A stretch of 64,000 nucleotides of DNA from Minisyncoccota bacterium (GCA_028718785.1 JAQULB010000001.1:104214-168213), one strand, 5' to 3'. Shown: positions 53,543 through 64,000, counted from the first letter of the stretch. Translations and numbers: made by a program. Notes: generated by a model not told the origin, from the sequence alone.

Positions 53543-53797
53543 CTACGAATTGTCAAACTCTTTTTTGTTTTTCTCTAAAGATAAAGAAGTAAGCCAAATA
53601 AGAAAGGGTCTTCTAAATTTATCTATTGGCCAGTCATCGCTATGAAAAAGCGAGGCCTTTTCAATTCTAAAACGAGAGAGCAAAGAAGTGGTGGCCTGCA
53701 AACTTTCAGGGGACATTTTATTATGCTGTTCCAAAAATTGCTCCTTTTTTAAGTGAGGGTTTGGAACTTCTTTAAATTTTTTAAATCTGGGGATCAT
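53543..53797 (-). CDS. Hypothetical protein
   Basis: 84-aa ORF, no motif. Confidence 0.35.
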   Translation of the reverse strand: MIPRFKKFKEVPNPHLKKEQFLEQHNKMSPESLQATTSLLSRFRIEKASLFHSDDWPIDKFRRPFLIWLTSLSLEKNKKEFDNS

Positions 53798-54206
53798 TGA
53801 TTTAAGTTATTATAATAAAAACAACTCATAAAAAATGAGTCGCAAATAATATTGCTCGTTTTTTTAAAAATTATTTGTAGATCAAAACTCTCTGCTTAAT
53901 TCAAGTATACACTTTTTTACCCCAAAAAACAACTTAATTGCGCTTTTTGCTTTGCTTTTCTTTTTTTACAGCAAGCATAGCTCTTTTTATTTCTAATCGT
54001 TTTTTAGTTTTATGAGAATGAGTTTTGCGCGCTTTTCCAACTCCATTTTTTCTTTTAGCCATATATTTTTTATTTAATTACTTCTTGAGTATAGCAGAAA
54101 ATTACAGCAAAAGAAAATACAGCGTATTCAACATGCTAAAATCTGACCGAAAGGCCGTTGATTAAGCAATTTAAAATCTGACTGAAATAATATAATAGCA
54201 AAAACC

Positions 54207-54319
54207 GCCCTGAGTTTATCAAGGGCGGTCCTCGACAGGTTCTAACATCGTCCAATGAGCTCCGCTCGCTGGCTGACAACCCGTCCTGAGTTTATTGAAG
54301 GATTAGAACCTGTTTTATA
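54207..54319 (+). ncRNA. Candidate structured element or sRNA built from the CCTGAG..GAAGG repeat family
   Basis: TATAAT at 54195-54200. Hairpin ACCGCCC/GGGCGGT. Long-range stem ACAGGTTCTAA/TTAGAACCTGT followed by TTTT. Confidence 0.3.
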
Positions 54320-54378
54320 AAAAATAGCCGTAATAATTTTCTACTACGGCTATATTTTCTCCTCTCTTTATATATTAG

Positions 54379-54819
54379 TTAATCGGCAAAAATTTTTCCC
54401 ATTGGTCCCCTGTCTTTGTCTTGCACAATCATGACCTGCATTAACATAGCCAAACGTCTGCACTGATCATAAAAAACAGGGTCCCATTCTTTCTCTACCT
54501 CGAGGTCTGTCTGTCCCTCAAATCCTTTTGAAATAGAAATGACGGCTTTTTCGTCGTCTACCCTCACTTGGAATCCTCCGCTTGCTGCGATCCTATCCTC
54601 GAACCATGTGATAGAGGCTTTGATGTTTTCAGGTTGAATTTCGATATCCTCATCCAACACATCGTTCCAATTAGCCAAATCTTTTAAAACTAATAACACA
54701 TCGGATTTCATCTGTTTAATATTTGGAGGAACCTCACAACCAAATTCGAAATGTATGCTATCGCTAATCTCAACAGGTCTAATTTCGCCAGTTTCCTTAT
54801 TCTTGACTTTGAATCTCAT
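54379..54819 (-). CDS. Hypothetical acidic protein (147 aa)
   Basis: SD AGGAGGTAATTAAA-ATG. Follows the PQ-loop-like gene by 5 nt. Higher GC than the flanks. Confidence 0.5.
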   Translation of the reverse strand: MRFKVKNKETGEIRPVEISDSIHFEFGCEVPPNIKQMKSDVLLVLKDLANWNDVLDEDIEIQPENIKASITWFEDRIAASGGFQVRVDDEKAVISISKGFEGQTDLEVEKEWDPVFYDQCRRLAMLMQVMIVQDKDRGPMGKIFAD

Positions 54820-61644: not shown

Positions 61645-61665
61645 AAAATAATTTTTGTTGATTTT

Positions 61666-61703
61666 TCAAGGCGTGGAAAATTGCTTAAACAAGCAATTTT
61701 CCA
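61666..61703. other. Perfect 17-bp hairpin between the ATPase and the membrane-protein gene
   Basis: GGCGTGGAAAATTGCTT-AAAC-AAGCAATTTTCCACGCC. Confidence 0.7.
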
Positions 61704-61824
61704 CGCCAAAAAAAGGTTGGCTCCGAGCTGTGAGAGAACTTAGAACTATTATTTTAAGCGGTTGGAAGTCCTACGAACTGGACGCAGCCGTAGATATGCT
61801 GGAAGGAAAATTCCCAGTAAATAT

Positions 61825-64000
61825 TTAAATCTGACTTCTTGTCGATATTTGATACTTTTTCTTTCTCCTATCAAAAGCCCTTTCTCCACCTTCCAGGATA
61901 TCGCATACCTGCTCAATAATTCCATTCTCAAACTGGTCAACGGGCATATTTGGTAATTGTCTTGCCTGATCCTCGAGTGAACCACAATCATACTCAAGAC
62001 GAGGTGTGCGCTTGCCATTATAGTTTGAAACAATGATTTGCTCGGCGTCTGTATTGACGACAAGATTAGGATTGTGAGTCACTATTATAATTTGTCGGTA
62101 TTGTTTCCTTGATCGGAAATAATCGATTAAATCTTTATAAACCGACAGATTATCCAGATTTTCTTCTGGTTGGTCTATAATAAGCGGCCTATAATCTCCT
62201 TTATCTATCTCCAAATAAAGCATTAAAAGAATAATACCTTTTTGACCAGGAGATAAGAGGTATAAATCTGTGTCATCGAATTTTAGAGACGAAATAATCT
62301 TAAAATTCGTTGGATCGAAAAGCCAATTAAAGAAATCGTCGATACTATAATTTTCCCGCAGCTGTTCTTCAATAGAAATAATACCACCCTCAAAAGCGGT
62401 AAAACTCTCTAAAATTTTATTAATCTGTGCTTCTAACATTGCATCAGCAAAATCACCTCTCATACATTCATCCCAGAAATAATTTAGTATTGTTTTTAGC
62501 GTGTTGATTTCTCTAAAATTTCCACGTCGCGTTCTGTCAATAATATCTAAACCACTTCGATAATGAGAATCGAGCTGGTAATTGATCTGTGCTTCAAATA
62601 CAAGCTTTTTATCTGTGTCAGTTCCAGCAGAAAGTATGTCTTGTAATGGTTTGTACAACTGCTCAATCTGCGTTTTTTCCTCTTTTAATAATTTAAAATA
62701 AGAACAGTAAGTAGTCATTCTATCTTTCTCTAAGCGTTCTTTCTCTGGAGTAGATTCTGTTTTTATTTTAGTTATTTCATTCTCTAAGGCTTTAATTGAT
62801 GCCTCGACAGATAGGGCCGTTTTCTTTTGTTGTTGATACTTAAGTTTGGTTGTCTCAAAGGCTCTCGTTTGTTTTTGTTTTTCATCAATCCCGTTATTTA
62901 AAGACTGCAGATTATCAAAGGGTAAGTCGATGGCTTGGATTGCAAGCAATTGAGCCACATCTTTCTTGGCGCCTTCTTTTAGGGTTTTTAGTTTTCCGCT
63001 GATTTCATTTTTCTTTTGATCAAGCAAAGTTTTAATACCAGACTCATCGATATCAACTTTAAAGACCGAGGAATTAGTAATGCCTACATCTTGTAAAAGA
63101 GTTCCTGTTTCCTCTCGAAATTCTTCAATATGAGTTTTAAAAACTTTTACTTTTGTTTCAATTTCAATAATTTTACTGATTTGTGCCTGTAGTTCAATTA
63201 TTTTGTTTTCAAATTTCTTTTTTATTTCAGATAAAGCCGCGAGTTCTTCTTGACCCTTCTTATCTTCTGCTGGGAGTTCGGGCAAGCTTTTATTAAGTCT
63301 TTCTAATTCTTTTTTCTTTTCATCAAAGGTTTTTTCTTTGTCGGGCAGTGTTTTAAGGATCGTGGACAAAGAGCCTATTTTTTTGTTTATGCCATTGATC
63401 TTCTTTAATACTTGGTCTTTTTCATATTGAAAAGAACTTAATATTCGAGATTTTAGTTCATCAAAATCGGAAGCTCCAATTCGTTCTGTTTCATCAAGTG
63501 CCTGAAAAATAACATTTTCTATTTGTCTTTGTAGCTTCTCGCTATTCTTGTGTGAGCATAAGTCTTCCACTGCACCCTGCGGCAAATACTGAACCAATTC
63601 TTGATCCTTAGTAAGGTTACCGACTTCAAATTCAGTCTTCGAATCGTCGGCCCAATCGATTGTTATCTTAGTATTAGAAATACTACTTTTATGCTTGGCT
63701 GCTTTTTTCAAAAAAGCATCTTCGTTATCGTCTTTACTGCCAGCACCATAAGCAATTGCTTCGACTAAGGCCGACTTTCCAGAACCCCTACCACCAATAA
63801 CCGCAATCAAATCTCGGTTCAATTCTAATTTAAAGTTATCAGGAAACCATCCGTTAGATGAAGGTATTGATATCTGTTTAATCACTTTATGGTCTGGCTT
63901 GAAATTGGGGGGCGTGACCCCGATAAAGACGCGCGCATCTGGTTCATTCAGTACTTGCTTCAAGCCAGCAAATGTCGGATCGGCTTTTATCCAAAGTAAA
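61825..64000 (-). CDS. SMC/Rad50-like ABC-type ATPase with long coiled-coil insert; N-terminus runs off the window
   Basis: Walker A GGRGSGKSAL, about 400 aa coiled coil, signature LSPGQKG, Walker B LIIDQPEENLD, IIVTHNP. The frame stays open upstream of the annotated TTG at 63963 up to position 64000. Confidence 0.75.
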   Translation of the reverse strand, partial: LLWIKADPTFAGLKQVLNEPDARVFIGVTPPNFKPDHKVIKQISIPSSNGWFPDNFKLELNRDLIAVIGGRGSGKSALVEAIAYGAGSKDDNEDAFLKKAAKHKSSISNTKITIDWADDSKTEFEVGNLTKDQELVQYLPQGAVEDLCSHKNSEKLQRQIENVIFQALDETERIGASDFDELKSRILSSFQYEKDQVLKKINGINKKIGSLSTILKTLPDKEKTFDEKKKELERLNKSLPELPAEDKKGQEELAALSEIKKKFENKIIELQAQISKIIEIETKVKVFKTHIEEFREETGTLLQDVGITNSSVFKVDIDESGIKTLLDQKKNEISGKLKTLKEGAKKDVAQLLAIQAIDLPFDNLQSLNNGIDEKQKQTRAFETTKLKYQQQKKTALSVEASIKALENEITKIKTESTPEKERLEKDRMTTYCSYFKLLKEEKTQIEQLYKPLQDILSAGTDTDKKLVFEAQINYQLDSHYRSGLDIIDRTRRGNFREINTLKTILNYFWDECMRGDFADAMLEAQINKILESFTAFEGGIISIEEQLRENYSIDDFFNWLFDPTNFKIISSLKFDDTDLYLLSPGQKGIILLMLYLEIDKGDYRPLIIDQPEENLDNLSVYKDLIDYFRSRKQYRQIIIVTHNPNLVVNTDAEQIIVSNYNGKRTPRLEYDCGSLEDQARQLPNMPVDQFENGIIEQVCDILEGGERAFDRRKKKYQISTRSQI

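What the first reader, a model, noticed from the sequence alone, without database searches (positions are those of the whole stretch)
53543..64000. Co-oriented accessory island built from cassettes separated by recurring repeat blocks
After the DEAD-box helicase gene, every ORF lies on the minus strand. Most have no recognisable housekeeping function, and several have visibly higher GC than the background. The ORFs are a 7-TM PQ-loop-like protein with an acidic protein, a membrane protein with a lipoprotein, a Fic/Doc-like protein with a 45-aa ORF, a 157-aa ORF, a 219-aa ORF, a 2-TM coiled-coil protein, and a large SMC/ABC ATPase. The gaps between these units are filled by the same modular GC-rich blocks. 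X1 (55588-55768) matches X2 (58291-58385) and part of X3 (59494-59584). Gene remnants are also present: a truncated copy of the 45-aa gene plus its terminator at 60684-60752, and a truncated zinc-ribbon-like ORF at about 58400-58559 on the plus strand. This layout of cassettes between homologous, structured spacers suggests a recombination-driven gene-cassette array or defence island. It resembles a sedentary integron array in spirit, but I could not recognise attC core sites, and no integrase lies inside the window.
Basis: partly seen in the sequence, partly recalled or inferred. Interest (0 to 1): 0.68.

Follow-up and report, generated by a model that had tools for sequence, protein, structure and literature searches.

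The report
Variable defence region with decaying mini-repeats
The 54–64 kb stretch is a variable accessory and defence gene region of an uncultured Paceibacterota (CPR) bacterium, and its recurring spacer blocks are duplicated and decaying copies of a short GC-rich mini-insertion that also sits in frame inside housekeeping genes; it is not an integron-like cassette array.

Summary
The repeat blocks are real and far beyond chance. X1 matches X2 at 91% over 94 nt and X3 at 84–88% over about 100 nt. The gene remnant at 60682–60776 is also real. I found two more decayed copies, at 60795–60858 and 54229–54272.

Co-orientation and GC content are not special. The zinc-ribbon call is unsupported, and the large ATPase runs off the window end.

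The organism is a Paceibacterota MAG. Relatives share the cold-shock gene, helicase, p84 and p42 only up to about 54.07 kb, then differ.

The ATPase is a TrlF-family PHP/SMC-like protein. It is 97.5% identical in DNA to a copy in another Paceibacterota contig, where it follows a methyltransferase and a ResIII helicase. Homology stops about 100 nt after its stop codon. The membrane/lipoprotein pair matches a phage gene pair.

There are no attC-like sites and no recombinase among the island proteins.

The core of block A is a roughly 40-nt palindrome. It is found exactly in 19 unrelated contigs (35–61% GC), often in frame inside housekeeping genes. It belongs to a family of 22–46-nt GC-rich insertions with nine further copies elsewhere in the window.

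Verdict: an ordinary variable or defence island. The mini-insertion family appears undescribed in the held library.

The parts
51767..53400 (-). Conserved flank: a cold-shock-domain gene (51767-51977) and the DEAD-box helicase (52195-53400).
   Evidence: The helicase is 100% identical to a Candidatus Pacebacteria MAG protein. Both genes are syntenic in relative L024.
53543..54062 (-). Two conserved small genes, p84 (53543-53797) and the basic p42 (53934-54062). They belong to the core, not to the variable region.
   Evidence: p84 is 87% and 72% identical in L023 and L024. p42 is 91% identical in L024.
54196..54313. GC-rich spacer holding decayed X-like motifs (54229-54272). The Logan contig L022 ends at window 54264 (inferred).
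   Evidence: Local alignment to 60832-60857 scores 32 against a null maximum of 24. Motif scans support it. Sequence read.
54379..55448 (-). Unit 1: a 7-TM protein (54825-55448) with sub-threshold MtN3/PQ-loop hits, plus an acidic protein (54379-54822).
   Evidence: A terminator-like hairpin follows at 54324-54353.
55588..55783 (.). X1, the only complete repeat block. Block A is 55588-55681 and block B is 55676-55783. It lies between two terminator-like hairpins (55786-55805 and 55592-55621).
55628..55675 (-). Mini-insertion inside block A. It has the G-unit ends (CACTTCGACAAGG ... CCCTCAGCGCAGGC) around the palindromic H core, whose 29-mer is at 55638-55666.
   Evidence: The exact 29-mer occurs in 2 GTDB genomes and its 23-mer in 17 metagenome contigs. 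Ends were compared.
55889..56921 (-). Unit 2: a membrane protein (56508-56921, phrog_26268) and a lipoprotein (55889-56479, phrog_24725). This is a phage-type gene pair.
   Evidence: The lipoprotein is 44% identical to a Synechococcus phage S-SRM01 protein and 38% to Clostridium phage phi3626 Gp45. The adjacent Gp44 is 30% identical to the membrane protein, E 3e-16.
56962..58234 (-). Unit 3: a Fic-domain protein with an N-terminal winged-helix-like part (57176-58234; motif QPFEDGNKRTAR, Gln in place of the catalytic His), the 45-aa ORF (57024-57161), and a strong terminator (56969-57001).
   Evidence: Pfam Fic 47 bits. PADLOC SoFic 70 bits. Terminator. The motif was read from the translation.
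58291..58384 (.). X2: block A only, 91% identical to X1, with a second intact H core (29-mer at 58341-58369). It lies 57 nt upstream of the Fic start.
58404..58559 (+). It has one CxxC and its status is unknown.
   Evidence: no family reaches threshold.
58729..59202 (-). Unit 4: p157, of unknown function, with its own terminator (58704-58720).
   Evidence: No hits in Pfam, PHROGs, PADLOC or NCBIfam. The AlphaFold model was unusable, pLDDT 38.6.
59397..59600 (.). X3: block B (59493-59600) followed by a terminator hairpin (59468-59484) whose tail matches the end of block A. An apparent partial extra B start lies at 59397-59440.
   Evidence: The extra B start rests only on my reading of the sequence. 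The Logan contig L020 ends at window 59400.
59767..60447 (-). Unit 5: p226, a near-orphan and the only clearly GC-rich gene (0.439).
   Evidence: Only 8 hits among 1.84 billion cluster representatives. GC.
60682..60776 (-). Stub of a second Fic-p45-terminator module: the last ~10 nt of Fic, the first ~10 codons of p45, and the terminator.
60795..60858 (.). Decayed X copy. Block A with an H core carrying 6 mismatches in 29 (60806-60834), then the start of block B (60836-60858). It lies directly after the p259 stop.
60865..61644 (-). Unit 6: p259, a 2-TM coiled-coil protein of unknown function, with low GC (0.301).
61663..61722 (.). A 24-bp hairpin (61663-61714, 88% complementary) and the point (61722) where homology with contig L028 ends.
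61825..64000 (-). The C-terminal 724 codons of a 991-aa TrlF-family PHP/SMC-like ATPase. The gene continues past the window end.
   Evidence: The frame is open to the window edge. NF045780 scores 409 bits on the fragment and 578 bits on the full protein P0249, against a cut-off of 350.

Best explanation
The stretch from about 54.07 kb to the window end is a variable accessory and defence region (a genomic island or hotspot) of a Paceibacterota genome. It lies next to a conserved block of cold-shock gene, helicase, p84 and p42.

It consists of small, separately terminated transcription units of foreign or mobile type:
- a TrlF-family PHP/SMC-like ATPase, which elsewhere travels with restriction-modification genes;
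- a Fic protein with a small partner ORF;
- a phage-type membrane/lipoprotein pair;
- several near-orphan genes.

The recurring GC-rich spacer blocks are not recombination sites of a cassette system. They are copies and wrecks of a roughly 190-nt composite spacer (B+A). Its conserved core is a short GC-rich mini-insertion with ends CCTTCGRCA ... CTCAGGRCAGG and an expanded palindromic middle. The same family is scattered through the rest of the genome, mostly as 21-24-nt in-frame insertions in housekeeping genes, and the palindromic form occurs in unrelated bacteria.

In the island these elements sit in dispensable spacers. There they were copied along with neighbouring DNA by local duplication and then eroded by deletion. 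One duplicated A-Fic-p45-terminator module is reduced to a stub.

Shown: the repeats, their decay, the synteny break, the sharing of the TrlF module, the phage pair, the in-frame insertions, and the absence of attC-like sites.

Inferred: that duplication and deletion, rather than site-specific recombination, produced the pattern; that the repeats at most serve passively as substrates for homologous or illegitimate recombination; and that the region acts in defence.
For: - Repeats and their fragmentary, differently composed copies.
- Stub of a second Fic-p45-terminator module beside a decayed block.
- Terminator-like hairpins after nearly every unit: 29 found against 7.9 expected.
- Synteny with relatives ends at about 53.93-54.07 kb.
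- TrlF is shared at 97.5% nt identity, with 50 synonymous and 2 non-synonymous changes. Homology ends about 100 nt after the stop codon, and the neighbours differ.
- TrlF sits next to type III-like or type I restriction-modification genes, Fic, AbiEii and integrases in other loci.
- The phage gene pair.
- No attC-like core pairs and no Rfam family.
- The H core occurs exactly in 19 other contigs of 35-61% GC, with only 30-45 nt shared.
- It is a true insertion in DinB and Trbp111 homologues.
- Nine further family members lie in window 1-53 kb, against 0 in shuffles. Eight are in frame in housekeeping ORFs. PDB alignments show 7-residue gaps opposite the inserts in IscS and MnmA.
- Genomic islands carrying restriction-modification systems are already described in Patescibacteria (PMC12455944).
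Against: - Within this window the long blocks A and B occur only in the island, at 5 of 7 unit junctions, and all three H cores point the same way. This is also what a cassette array with boundary elements would look like.
- The far side of the island, and any recombinase there, lies outside the window and could not be retrieved.
- No defence function was tested. PADLOC hits to Ppl, SoFic and others are partial and would not qualify as those systems.
- With helicase identity of only 84-90%, loss of synteny in relatives may reflect general genome shuffling rather than a hotspot.
- Block B has no relatives outside the window, so its origin is unknown (one search found nothing).
Confidence: 0.6

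Rival explanations
1. This is a true gene-cassette array. The X blocks, or the palindrome within them, are folded recombination sites used by a recombinase encoded outside the window. The arrangement would be analogous to integron attC sites but unrelated in sequence.
For: X-derived DNA lies at 5 of 7 unit junctions, and the long blocks occur nowhere else in the window. The three palindrome cores share one orientation. The core is an imperfect palindrome with bulges. Units show turnover, in the Fic stub. Integrases occur near TrlF in L028 and L029.
Against: There are no R''/R' core pairs and no recombinase among the island proteins. The only mappable exchange boundary (61722) is not at a block. 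The copies are partial and each is built differently. The palindrome folds no better than shuffled sequence, z from -1.2 to +0.3. The same family sits inside housekeeping ORFs, where it cannot mark cassette ends. No gene is shared near the element across 19 loci.
Confidence: 0.12
2. The X blocks are functional RNA elements: a small RNA gene, or a leader or attenuator that has been copied in front of different genes.
For: X1 lies between two terminator-like hairpins, and block A itself ends in one just upstream of the next gene. Block A precedes the 7-TM gene, the Fic gene and the deleted Fic copy. Four of the 8 X1/X2 differences fall in predicted pairs, and all four keep pairing.
Against: There is no Rfam match even at a permissive threshold. 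Folding z-scores are -1.5 and -0.8. No compensatory changes are seen, although only 2 copies per block are available. The downstream genes are unrelated. The best-conserved part is a mobile insertion that also occurs inside coding regions in both orientations.
Confidence: 0.13
3. This is an ordinary core-genome stretch. The repeats are incidental REP/BIME-like intergenic elements with no link to gene turnover, and the region is not an island.
For: Composition equals the rest of the window. Gene orientation is the same as in most of the window. Other repeat pairs and GC-rich blocks exist elsewhere. The mini-insertion family is dispersed.
Against: Synteny is lost in relatives exactly here. The TrlF module is nearly identical in a different context. 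There is a phage gene pair, a near-orphan gene and a gene stub.
Confidence: 0.12

Closest known systems
Defence or genomic islands, including those carrying restriction-modification systems in Patescibacteria (PMC12455944)
   Same: A cluster of unrelated defence-type and orphan genes next to conserved genes. Content varies between relatives, and one module (TrlF) is shared nearly identically with another genome in a different context.
   Different: There is no compositional signal. No integrase or tRNA boundary is visible in the window. The only recognised defence-family member is TrlF, at NCBIfam level, and the other hits are partial.
REP / BIME (bacterial interspersed mosaic elements) of enterobacteria
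   Same: Spacers between co-oriented transcription units are built as mosaics of a palindromic unit plus other short conserved motifs. They lie close to terminators.
   Different: The long blocks occur only in the island within this window, rather than genome-wide. The palindromic unit also occurs inside coding regions and in unrelated phyla. No RAYT-type gene was seen.
Rickettsia palindromic elements (RPEs) and other intragenic MITEs (review PMC10969869)
   Same: Short non-coding repeat elements are inserted in frame into unrelated housekeeping genes and read through as extra peptide loops.
   Different: These are much shorter (21-51 nt against about 100-150 nt). The ends are not inverted repeats. 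No consistent target duplication is seen. Identical cores occur in genomes of 35% and 61% GC, that is, across phyla rather than within one genus.
Integron cassette arrays (attC sites; sedentary chromosomal integrons, CALINs)
   Same: Co-oriented small units are separated by related imperfect palindromes, all in one orientation.
   Different: No R''/R' core sites and no IntI were seen. The repeats are incomplete and inconsistently placed, and the same element lies inside genes.
TrlF-family AAA-like ATPase (NCBIfam NF045780) and the related anti-phage protein Ppl
   Same: The full protein scores 578 bits against a cut-off of 350, covering profile positions 2-944. It shares Ppl's SMC/ABC-type ATPase region and partly matches the Ppl profile.
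   Different: It scores only 115 bits against Ppl's cut-off of 1000, so it is not Ppl. The function of TrlF itself was not found in the held literature.

Membership tests
Integron / attC cassette array | attC sites with paired core sites R'' (RYYYAAC) and R' (GTTRRRY), 45-140 nt apart, closing an imperfect hairpin after each cassette | tested here: not met
   The scan found 0 candidates in 53.4-64 kb on either strand, and 1 per strand in the other 53 kb, none of them hairpin-closed. This was a simple pattern and fold test, not IntegronFinder's covariance model.
Integron / attC cassette array | An IntI-type tyrosine recombinase with an attI site at one end of the array | tested here: inconclusive
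   None of the island proteins has a recombinase domain. The array's far end lies outside the window and could not be fetched.
Defence island | Several recognised defence systems clustered together | tested here: inconclusive
   PADLOC gives only partial hits: Ppl 66 bits, mad3, LmuB and AriA for the ATPase, and SoFic 70 bits for Fic. TrlF neighbours restriction-modification genes, AbiEii and Fic in L028 and L031. No complete known system lies inside the window.
Genomic island / variable region | Gene content differs between related genomes while the flanks are conserved | tested here: met
   L023 and L024 share the helicase side up to about 53.93-54.07 kb and then carry other genes. Only one flank could be tested, and the relatives are only 84-90% identical in the helicase.
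Genomic island / variable region | Atypical base composition, or a tRNA/integrase boundary | tested here: not met
   GC is 0.365 against 0.359. There is no tRNA in the window and no integrase among the island proteins.
TrlF family AAA-like ATPase (NF045780) | A score above the curated cut-off (350 bits) over the full-length profile | tested here: met
   409 bits on the in-window fragment. 578 bits over profile positions 2-944 on the full protein P0249.
Fic/Doc AMPylating enzymes | A Fic fold with the catalytic motif HxFx(D/E)GNGRxxR | tested here: inconclusive
   The Pfam Fic domain is met at 47 bits. The motif, however, reads QPFEDGNKRTAR: His is replaced by Gln and GNGR by GNKR (translation).
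MITE | Terminal inverted repeats and target-site duplications | tested here: not met
   The ends CCTTCGRCA and CTCAGGRCAGG are not inverted repeats. No consistent duplication flanks the copies. The apparent 8-nt duplication in L016 is better read as the end of a preceding tandem unit.
REP / RAYT (REPtron) | A short palindromic unit in many intergenic copies, plus a RAYT (Y1 HUH) transposase gene | tested here: inconclusive
   The palindromic unit is present, but it is usually single-copy per contig and often intragenic. No shared gene occurs near it in 19 loci. Whole genomes were not available.
RPE-like in-frame selfish insertions | A repeat element inserted in frame in unrelated conserved genes and absent from homologues | tested here: met
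   Gaps in PDB homologues lie exactly opposite the inserts in DinB (12 aa), IscS (7 aa) and MnmA (7 aa), and Trbp111 aligns in two pieces around its insert of about 17 aa. Four of the six reading frames of the core are open.

The most novel reading that the evidence does not exclude
The GC-rich units (ends CCTTCGRCA ... CTCAGGRCAGG, 21-51 nt, with or without an expanded palindromic middle) may be an undescribed, still-active class of ultra-short mobile insertion. It would spread across bacterial phyla and settle in frame in essential genes. On this reading, the island's X blocks are where it accumulates, and perhaps where it mediates module exchange. The reading rests on three observations:
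- identical 29-33-mers in 35% GC Patescibacteria and 61% GC Anaerolineae contigs;
- in-frame insertions confirmed against solved structures;
- the inner palindrome occurring in both orientations between the same flanks (5 loci against 3).
Probability: 0.25. Interest if true: 0.7.

Novelty: new variant of a known kind. Interest (0 to 1): 0.45.

Why it matters
As an island, the region adds little. Variable regions rich in defence genes are expected, and they have been reported in Patescibacteria.

Two points have wider value.

1. The TrlF module shows very recent exchange between Paceibacterota genomes, with a sharply defined 3' boundary. This gives a handle on how such reduced genomes trade defence genes.

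2. The spacer repeats led to a family of 21-51-nt GC-rich insertions. They sit in frame in housekeeping genes of this low-GC genome, and their palindromic form is identical in unrelated, high-GC bacteria. If these are mobile, they are among the shortest selfish elements known. They would be a source of protein-loop variation in CPR bacteria, and a confounder for gene calling and alignment in metagenomes.

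Tried and rejected
- Rfam at gathering and permissive thresholds: nothing relevant.
- tRNA/tmRNA scan, looking for an integration target or duplicated 3' ends: none.
- DGR template/variable repeat idea: by my reading of the aligned copies, the X1/X2 differences are not adenine-specific.
- 'One X copy split by a 1.1-kb insertion with a GCTCC duplication': weakened. X3 has its own terminator whose tail matches the end of block A, so a mosaic reading fits better.
- attC-like core scan: none.
- Searching the protein database with the stop-free translation of X1, to find other copies called as spurious ORFs: no candidate.
- Block B pattern in viral contigs: none. H core in viral contigs, plasmids and phages: none.
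- Extending the contig beyond 64 kb: the 175-kb NCBI contig is not retrievable. Only short Logan contigs of the same sample were returned, ending at window 54264, 59400 and 61780.
- AlphaFold on p157 without an alignment: pLDDT 38.6, unusable, so no fold search was run.
- Looking for a shared transposase near the palindrome in 19 loci: none.
- Literature searches for the sequences, the encoded peptides, TrlF, PARCEL, and MITE/REP in CPR: nothing pertinent.
- Hairpin stability of the palindrome: not better than shuffles, so 'strong structured spacer' was dropped.

Full report
**1. What is in the sequence**

The window has 36% GC. In 52-64 kb every credible ORF is on the minus strand. The same holds from 49673 onwards and for most ORFs of at least 110 aa in the whole window, and GC skew is negative throughout. 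Co-orientation therefore says little.

Island GC is 0.365 against 0.359 elsewhere. Only p226 (0.439) stands clearly above the background ORF range of 0.359 +/- 0.026, and p259 is low at 0.301.

The repeat blocks are real:
- 55588-55681 matches 58291-58384 at 91%.
- 55676-55781 matches 59493-59598 at 84-88%.
- The conserved cores were not matched twice in any of 100 shuffles.
- The stub of the 45-aa gene with its terminator, at 60682-60776, is confirmed at base level.

More sensitive local alignment against a shuffled null (maximum score 24) added two copies. One is a decayed block A plus the start of B at 60795-60858. The other is debris at 54229-54272. X-derived DNA thus occupies five of the seven island spacers. 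The long blocks occur nowhere else in the window.

**2. The genes**

- Pfam confirms Fic. Its motif reads QPFEDGNKRTAR, so the catalytic His is replaced by Gln.
- The PQ-loop/MtN3 hits of the 7-TM protein are below threshold.
- The ATPase ORF is open to the window edge. The full protein is 991 aa (P0249, MDD5738501.1) and is a TrlF-family AAA-like ATPase, scoring 578 bits against a cut-off of 350. It is related to the anti-phage protein Ppl but far below Ppl's cut-off.
- The membrane protein and lipoprotein match PHROG families 26268 and 24725. They correspond to the adjacent Gp44/Gp45 pair of Clostridium phage phi3626, and the lipoprotein also has homologues in cyanophage and vibriophages.
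- p226 has 8 hits among 1.84 billion cluster representatives.
- p157, p259 and the acidic protein match nothing.
- Nearly every unit is followed by a terminator-like hairpin: 29 found against 7.9 expected.

**3. Origin and neighbours**

The helicase is identical to a protein of a Candidatus Pacebacteria MAG on a 175-kb contig. Two relatives keep the helicase side but differ beyond it.
- L023, with a 90% identical helicase, shares sequence up to about 53934.
- L024, at 84%, shares the cold-shock gene, helicase, p84 and p42. It has a response regulator inserted, and then a different Fic, a hydrolase fragment and an AAA_14 ATPase.

The variable part therefore starts at about 54.07 kb, not at 53543.

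A JGI contig from another Paceibacterota genome (L028, GC 0.398) carries the TrlF gene at 97.5% DNA identity. Of the differing codons, 50 are synonymous and 2 are not. Homology ends at window 61722, about 100 nt after the stop codon. In that contig TrlF is preceded by an N6/N4 methyltransferase and a ResIII helicase. It is followed by the housekeeping MgsA gene, and an integrase lies 6 kb further on.

In L031, TrlF follows a complete type I restriction-modification system and a Fic gene. In L029 it stands alone near a diversity-generating retroelement and an integrase.

TrlF homologues of 55-75% identity occur in many phyla. This is the behaviour of a mobile defence gene.

The window's own continuation could not be fetched.

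**4. What the blocks are**

There is no Rfam family, no tRNA, and no exceptional folding.

A scan for attC-type core pairs found none in the island. The island proteins contain no recombinase.

The spacer 60448-60864 shows how the pattern arises. Directly after the p259 stop come, in order:
- a decayed B/A copy;
- the last bases of Fic;
- the first ten codons of p45;
- the terminator.

This is a duplicated A-Fic-p45-terminator module from which Fic was deleted.

X3 is block B joined to a different terminator, whose tail still matches the end of block A. The copies are therefore mosaics produced by duplication, replacement and deletion. They are not uniform boundary sites.

**5. The core of block A**

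The 29-mer GGGCTTCGACTGAGCTCAGCCGAAAGTCC occurs exactly in two GTDB genomes. In a Patescibacteria MAG it lies between rpsH and rplF. In an Anaerolineae MAG it lies inside a methyltransferase gene. Its 23-mer core occurs in 17 metagenome contigs of 35-61% GC.

Only 30-45 nt are shared with the window, and most contigs hold a single copy.

In seven distinct genes it lies in frame inside a long ORF: a methyltransferase, YraN, a debranching-type enzyme, prepilin peptidase, Trbp111, DinB and DXS. Four of the six frames of the core are open.

Alignment to solved structures shows a 12-residue gap in DinB opposite the insert. Trbp111 aligns in two pieces around an insert of about 17 residues.

In five loci the flanks read TTCGACAAGG ... 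CCTCA around one orientation of the inner palindrome. In three they surround the other orientation. The rest have other flanks.

No shared gene accompanies the element. It is absent from plasmid, phage and viral collections.

**6. The wider family**

Translating the rest of the window revealed short peptides such as LRQNSGQAQ, PSTSSGQD and ACPERSRRI inside housekeeping proteins. They are encoded by 22-24-nt GC-rich units with ends CCTTCG(A/G)CA and TCAGG(A/G)CAGG.

Nine units lie in 1-53 kb, against none in 20 shuffles. Eight of them are in frame in ORFs. One, at 35795-35840, has an expanded 26-nt middle.

PDB alignments show 7-residue gaps exactly opposite the inserts in the IscS-like and MnmA proteins.

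On the minus strand, block A of X1 reads CACTTCGACAAGG-[29-nt palindrome]-CCCTCAGCGCAGGC. These are the same two ends around an expanded middle.

The conserved heart of the island's blocks is therefore one member of a dispersed mini-insertion family. In the gene-dense core the family survives only as in-frame inserts. In the island it sits in spacers, where it has been copied with its surroundings.

**7. Comparison with known systems**

- The region behaves like a genomic or defence island. Such islands with restriction-modification systems are known in Patescibacteria (PMC12455944).
- The mosaic spacers resemble BIMEs.
- The in-frame inserts resemble Rickettsia palindromic elements (PMC10969869). 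However, they are far shorter, lack inverted ends and target duplications, and cross phyla.
- Integron membership fails on the core-site test, and no integrase is visible.
- No paper in the held library contains the sequences or peptides.

**8. Verdict**

The island itself is ordinary. The mini-insertion family is the unusual element and remains mechanistically unexplained.

Noticed in passing
window 1002-1023, 23690-23735, 28406-28428, 31218-31240, 32331-32353, 33635-33657, 45741-45763: 22-24-nt GC-rich units (CCTTCGRCA...TCAGGRCAGG) are inserted in frame in housekeeping ORFs. These include an ABC ATPase, an IscS-like protein and MnmA (family names); other hosts were named by eye only. One ORF carries a tandem pair. 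They encode [16 protein letters not shown] x2, ACPEGTRRI, LRQNSGQAQ, LRQNSGQVG, ACPERSRRI and LRQVSGQAQ. PDB homologues have 7-residue gaps opposite two of them.
   Followed up: partly
window 35540-35625 (-) and 35795-35840 (+): A very stable tRNA-like fold (-38.8 kcal/mol, z -4.3) has a sub-threshold Rfam tmRNA match (22 bits, E 3.6e-7), but ARAGORN calls neither a tRNA nor a tmRNA. An expanded 46-nt G-unit lies 180 nt away.
   Followed up: partly
window 6085-6165 (+): By eye this sequence looks like a tRNA, ending in ACCA and followed by a terminator. Neither ARAGORN nor Rfam calls it, and the fold z-score is only -1.6.
   Followed up: partly
window 5580-5716: A very GC-rich block (up to 0.69 in 80 nt) lies just upstream of a small CxxC ORF, which looks like a ribosomal protein by eye only. 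It could be an unrecognised leader. There is no Rfam match.
   Followed up: no
window 7344-7619 (+): A 91-aa secreted-looking protein with a Cys/Gly-rich tail (TCPCGGGCDCTANGQPCSCGQNGATCGCG...). It accounts for a GC-rich patch.
   Followed up: no
window 49563-49664 vs 50591-50692; 2817-2859 vs 31501-31543; 18923-18961 vs 37116-37154; 12315-12379 vs 30237-30301: Other repeat pairs lie outside the island, at 91-92% identity. There are also AT-rich 'TTAGAATTT'-type arrays, and similar arrays flank the palindrome in metagenome contig L003.
   Followed up: no
window 57176-58234 (-): The Fic protein has Gln instead of the catalytic His (QPFEDGNKRTAR) and, by eye, an N-terminal winged-helix-like region. 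It may be a regulator or an inactive Fic rather than an AMPylase.
   Followed up: no
L028 (JGI Ga0378408_0000660), L029, L031: TrlF homologues of 55-75% identity occur across phyla, including Patescibacteria, WOR-3, Omnitrophota, Ignavibacteria, Rhizobiales, Zixibacteria and a Hodarchaeales archaeon. The gene sits directly after type I or type III-like restriction-modification genes in two of three loci, with Fic genes nearby.
   Followed up: partly
Logan contigs L020 and L022 (sample SRR22315506): Independent assemblies of the same organism break at window 54264, 59400 and 61780. Two of these lie at X-like motifs and one lies just past the TrlF homology boundary. This hints at repeats or strain variants at those points.
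   Followed up: no
L016 5590-5637; window 23690-23735: The units can occur in tandem. The apparent 8-nt target duplication around the palindrome in the Trbp111 homologue is probably the end of a preceding unit.
   Followed up: partly
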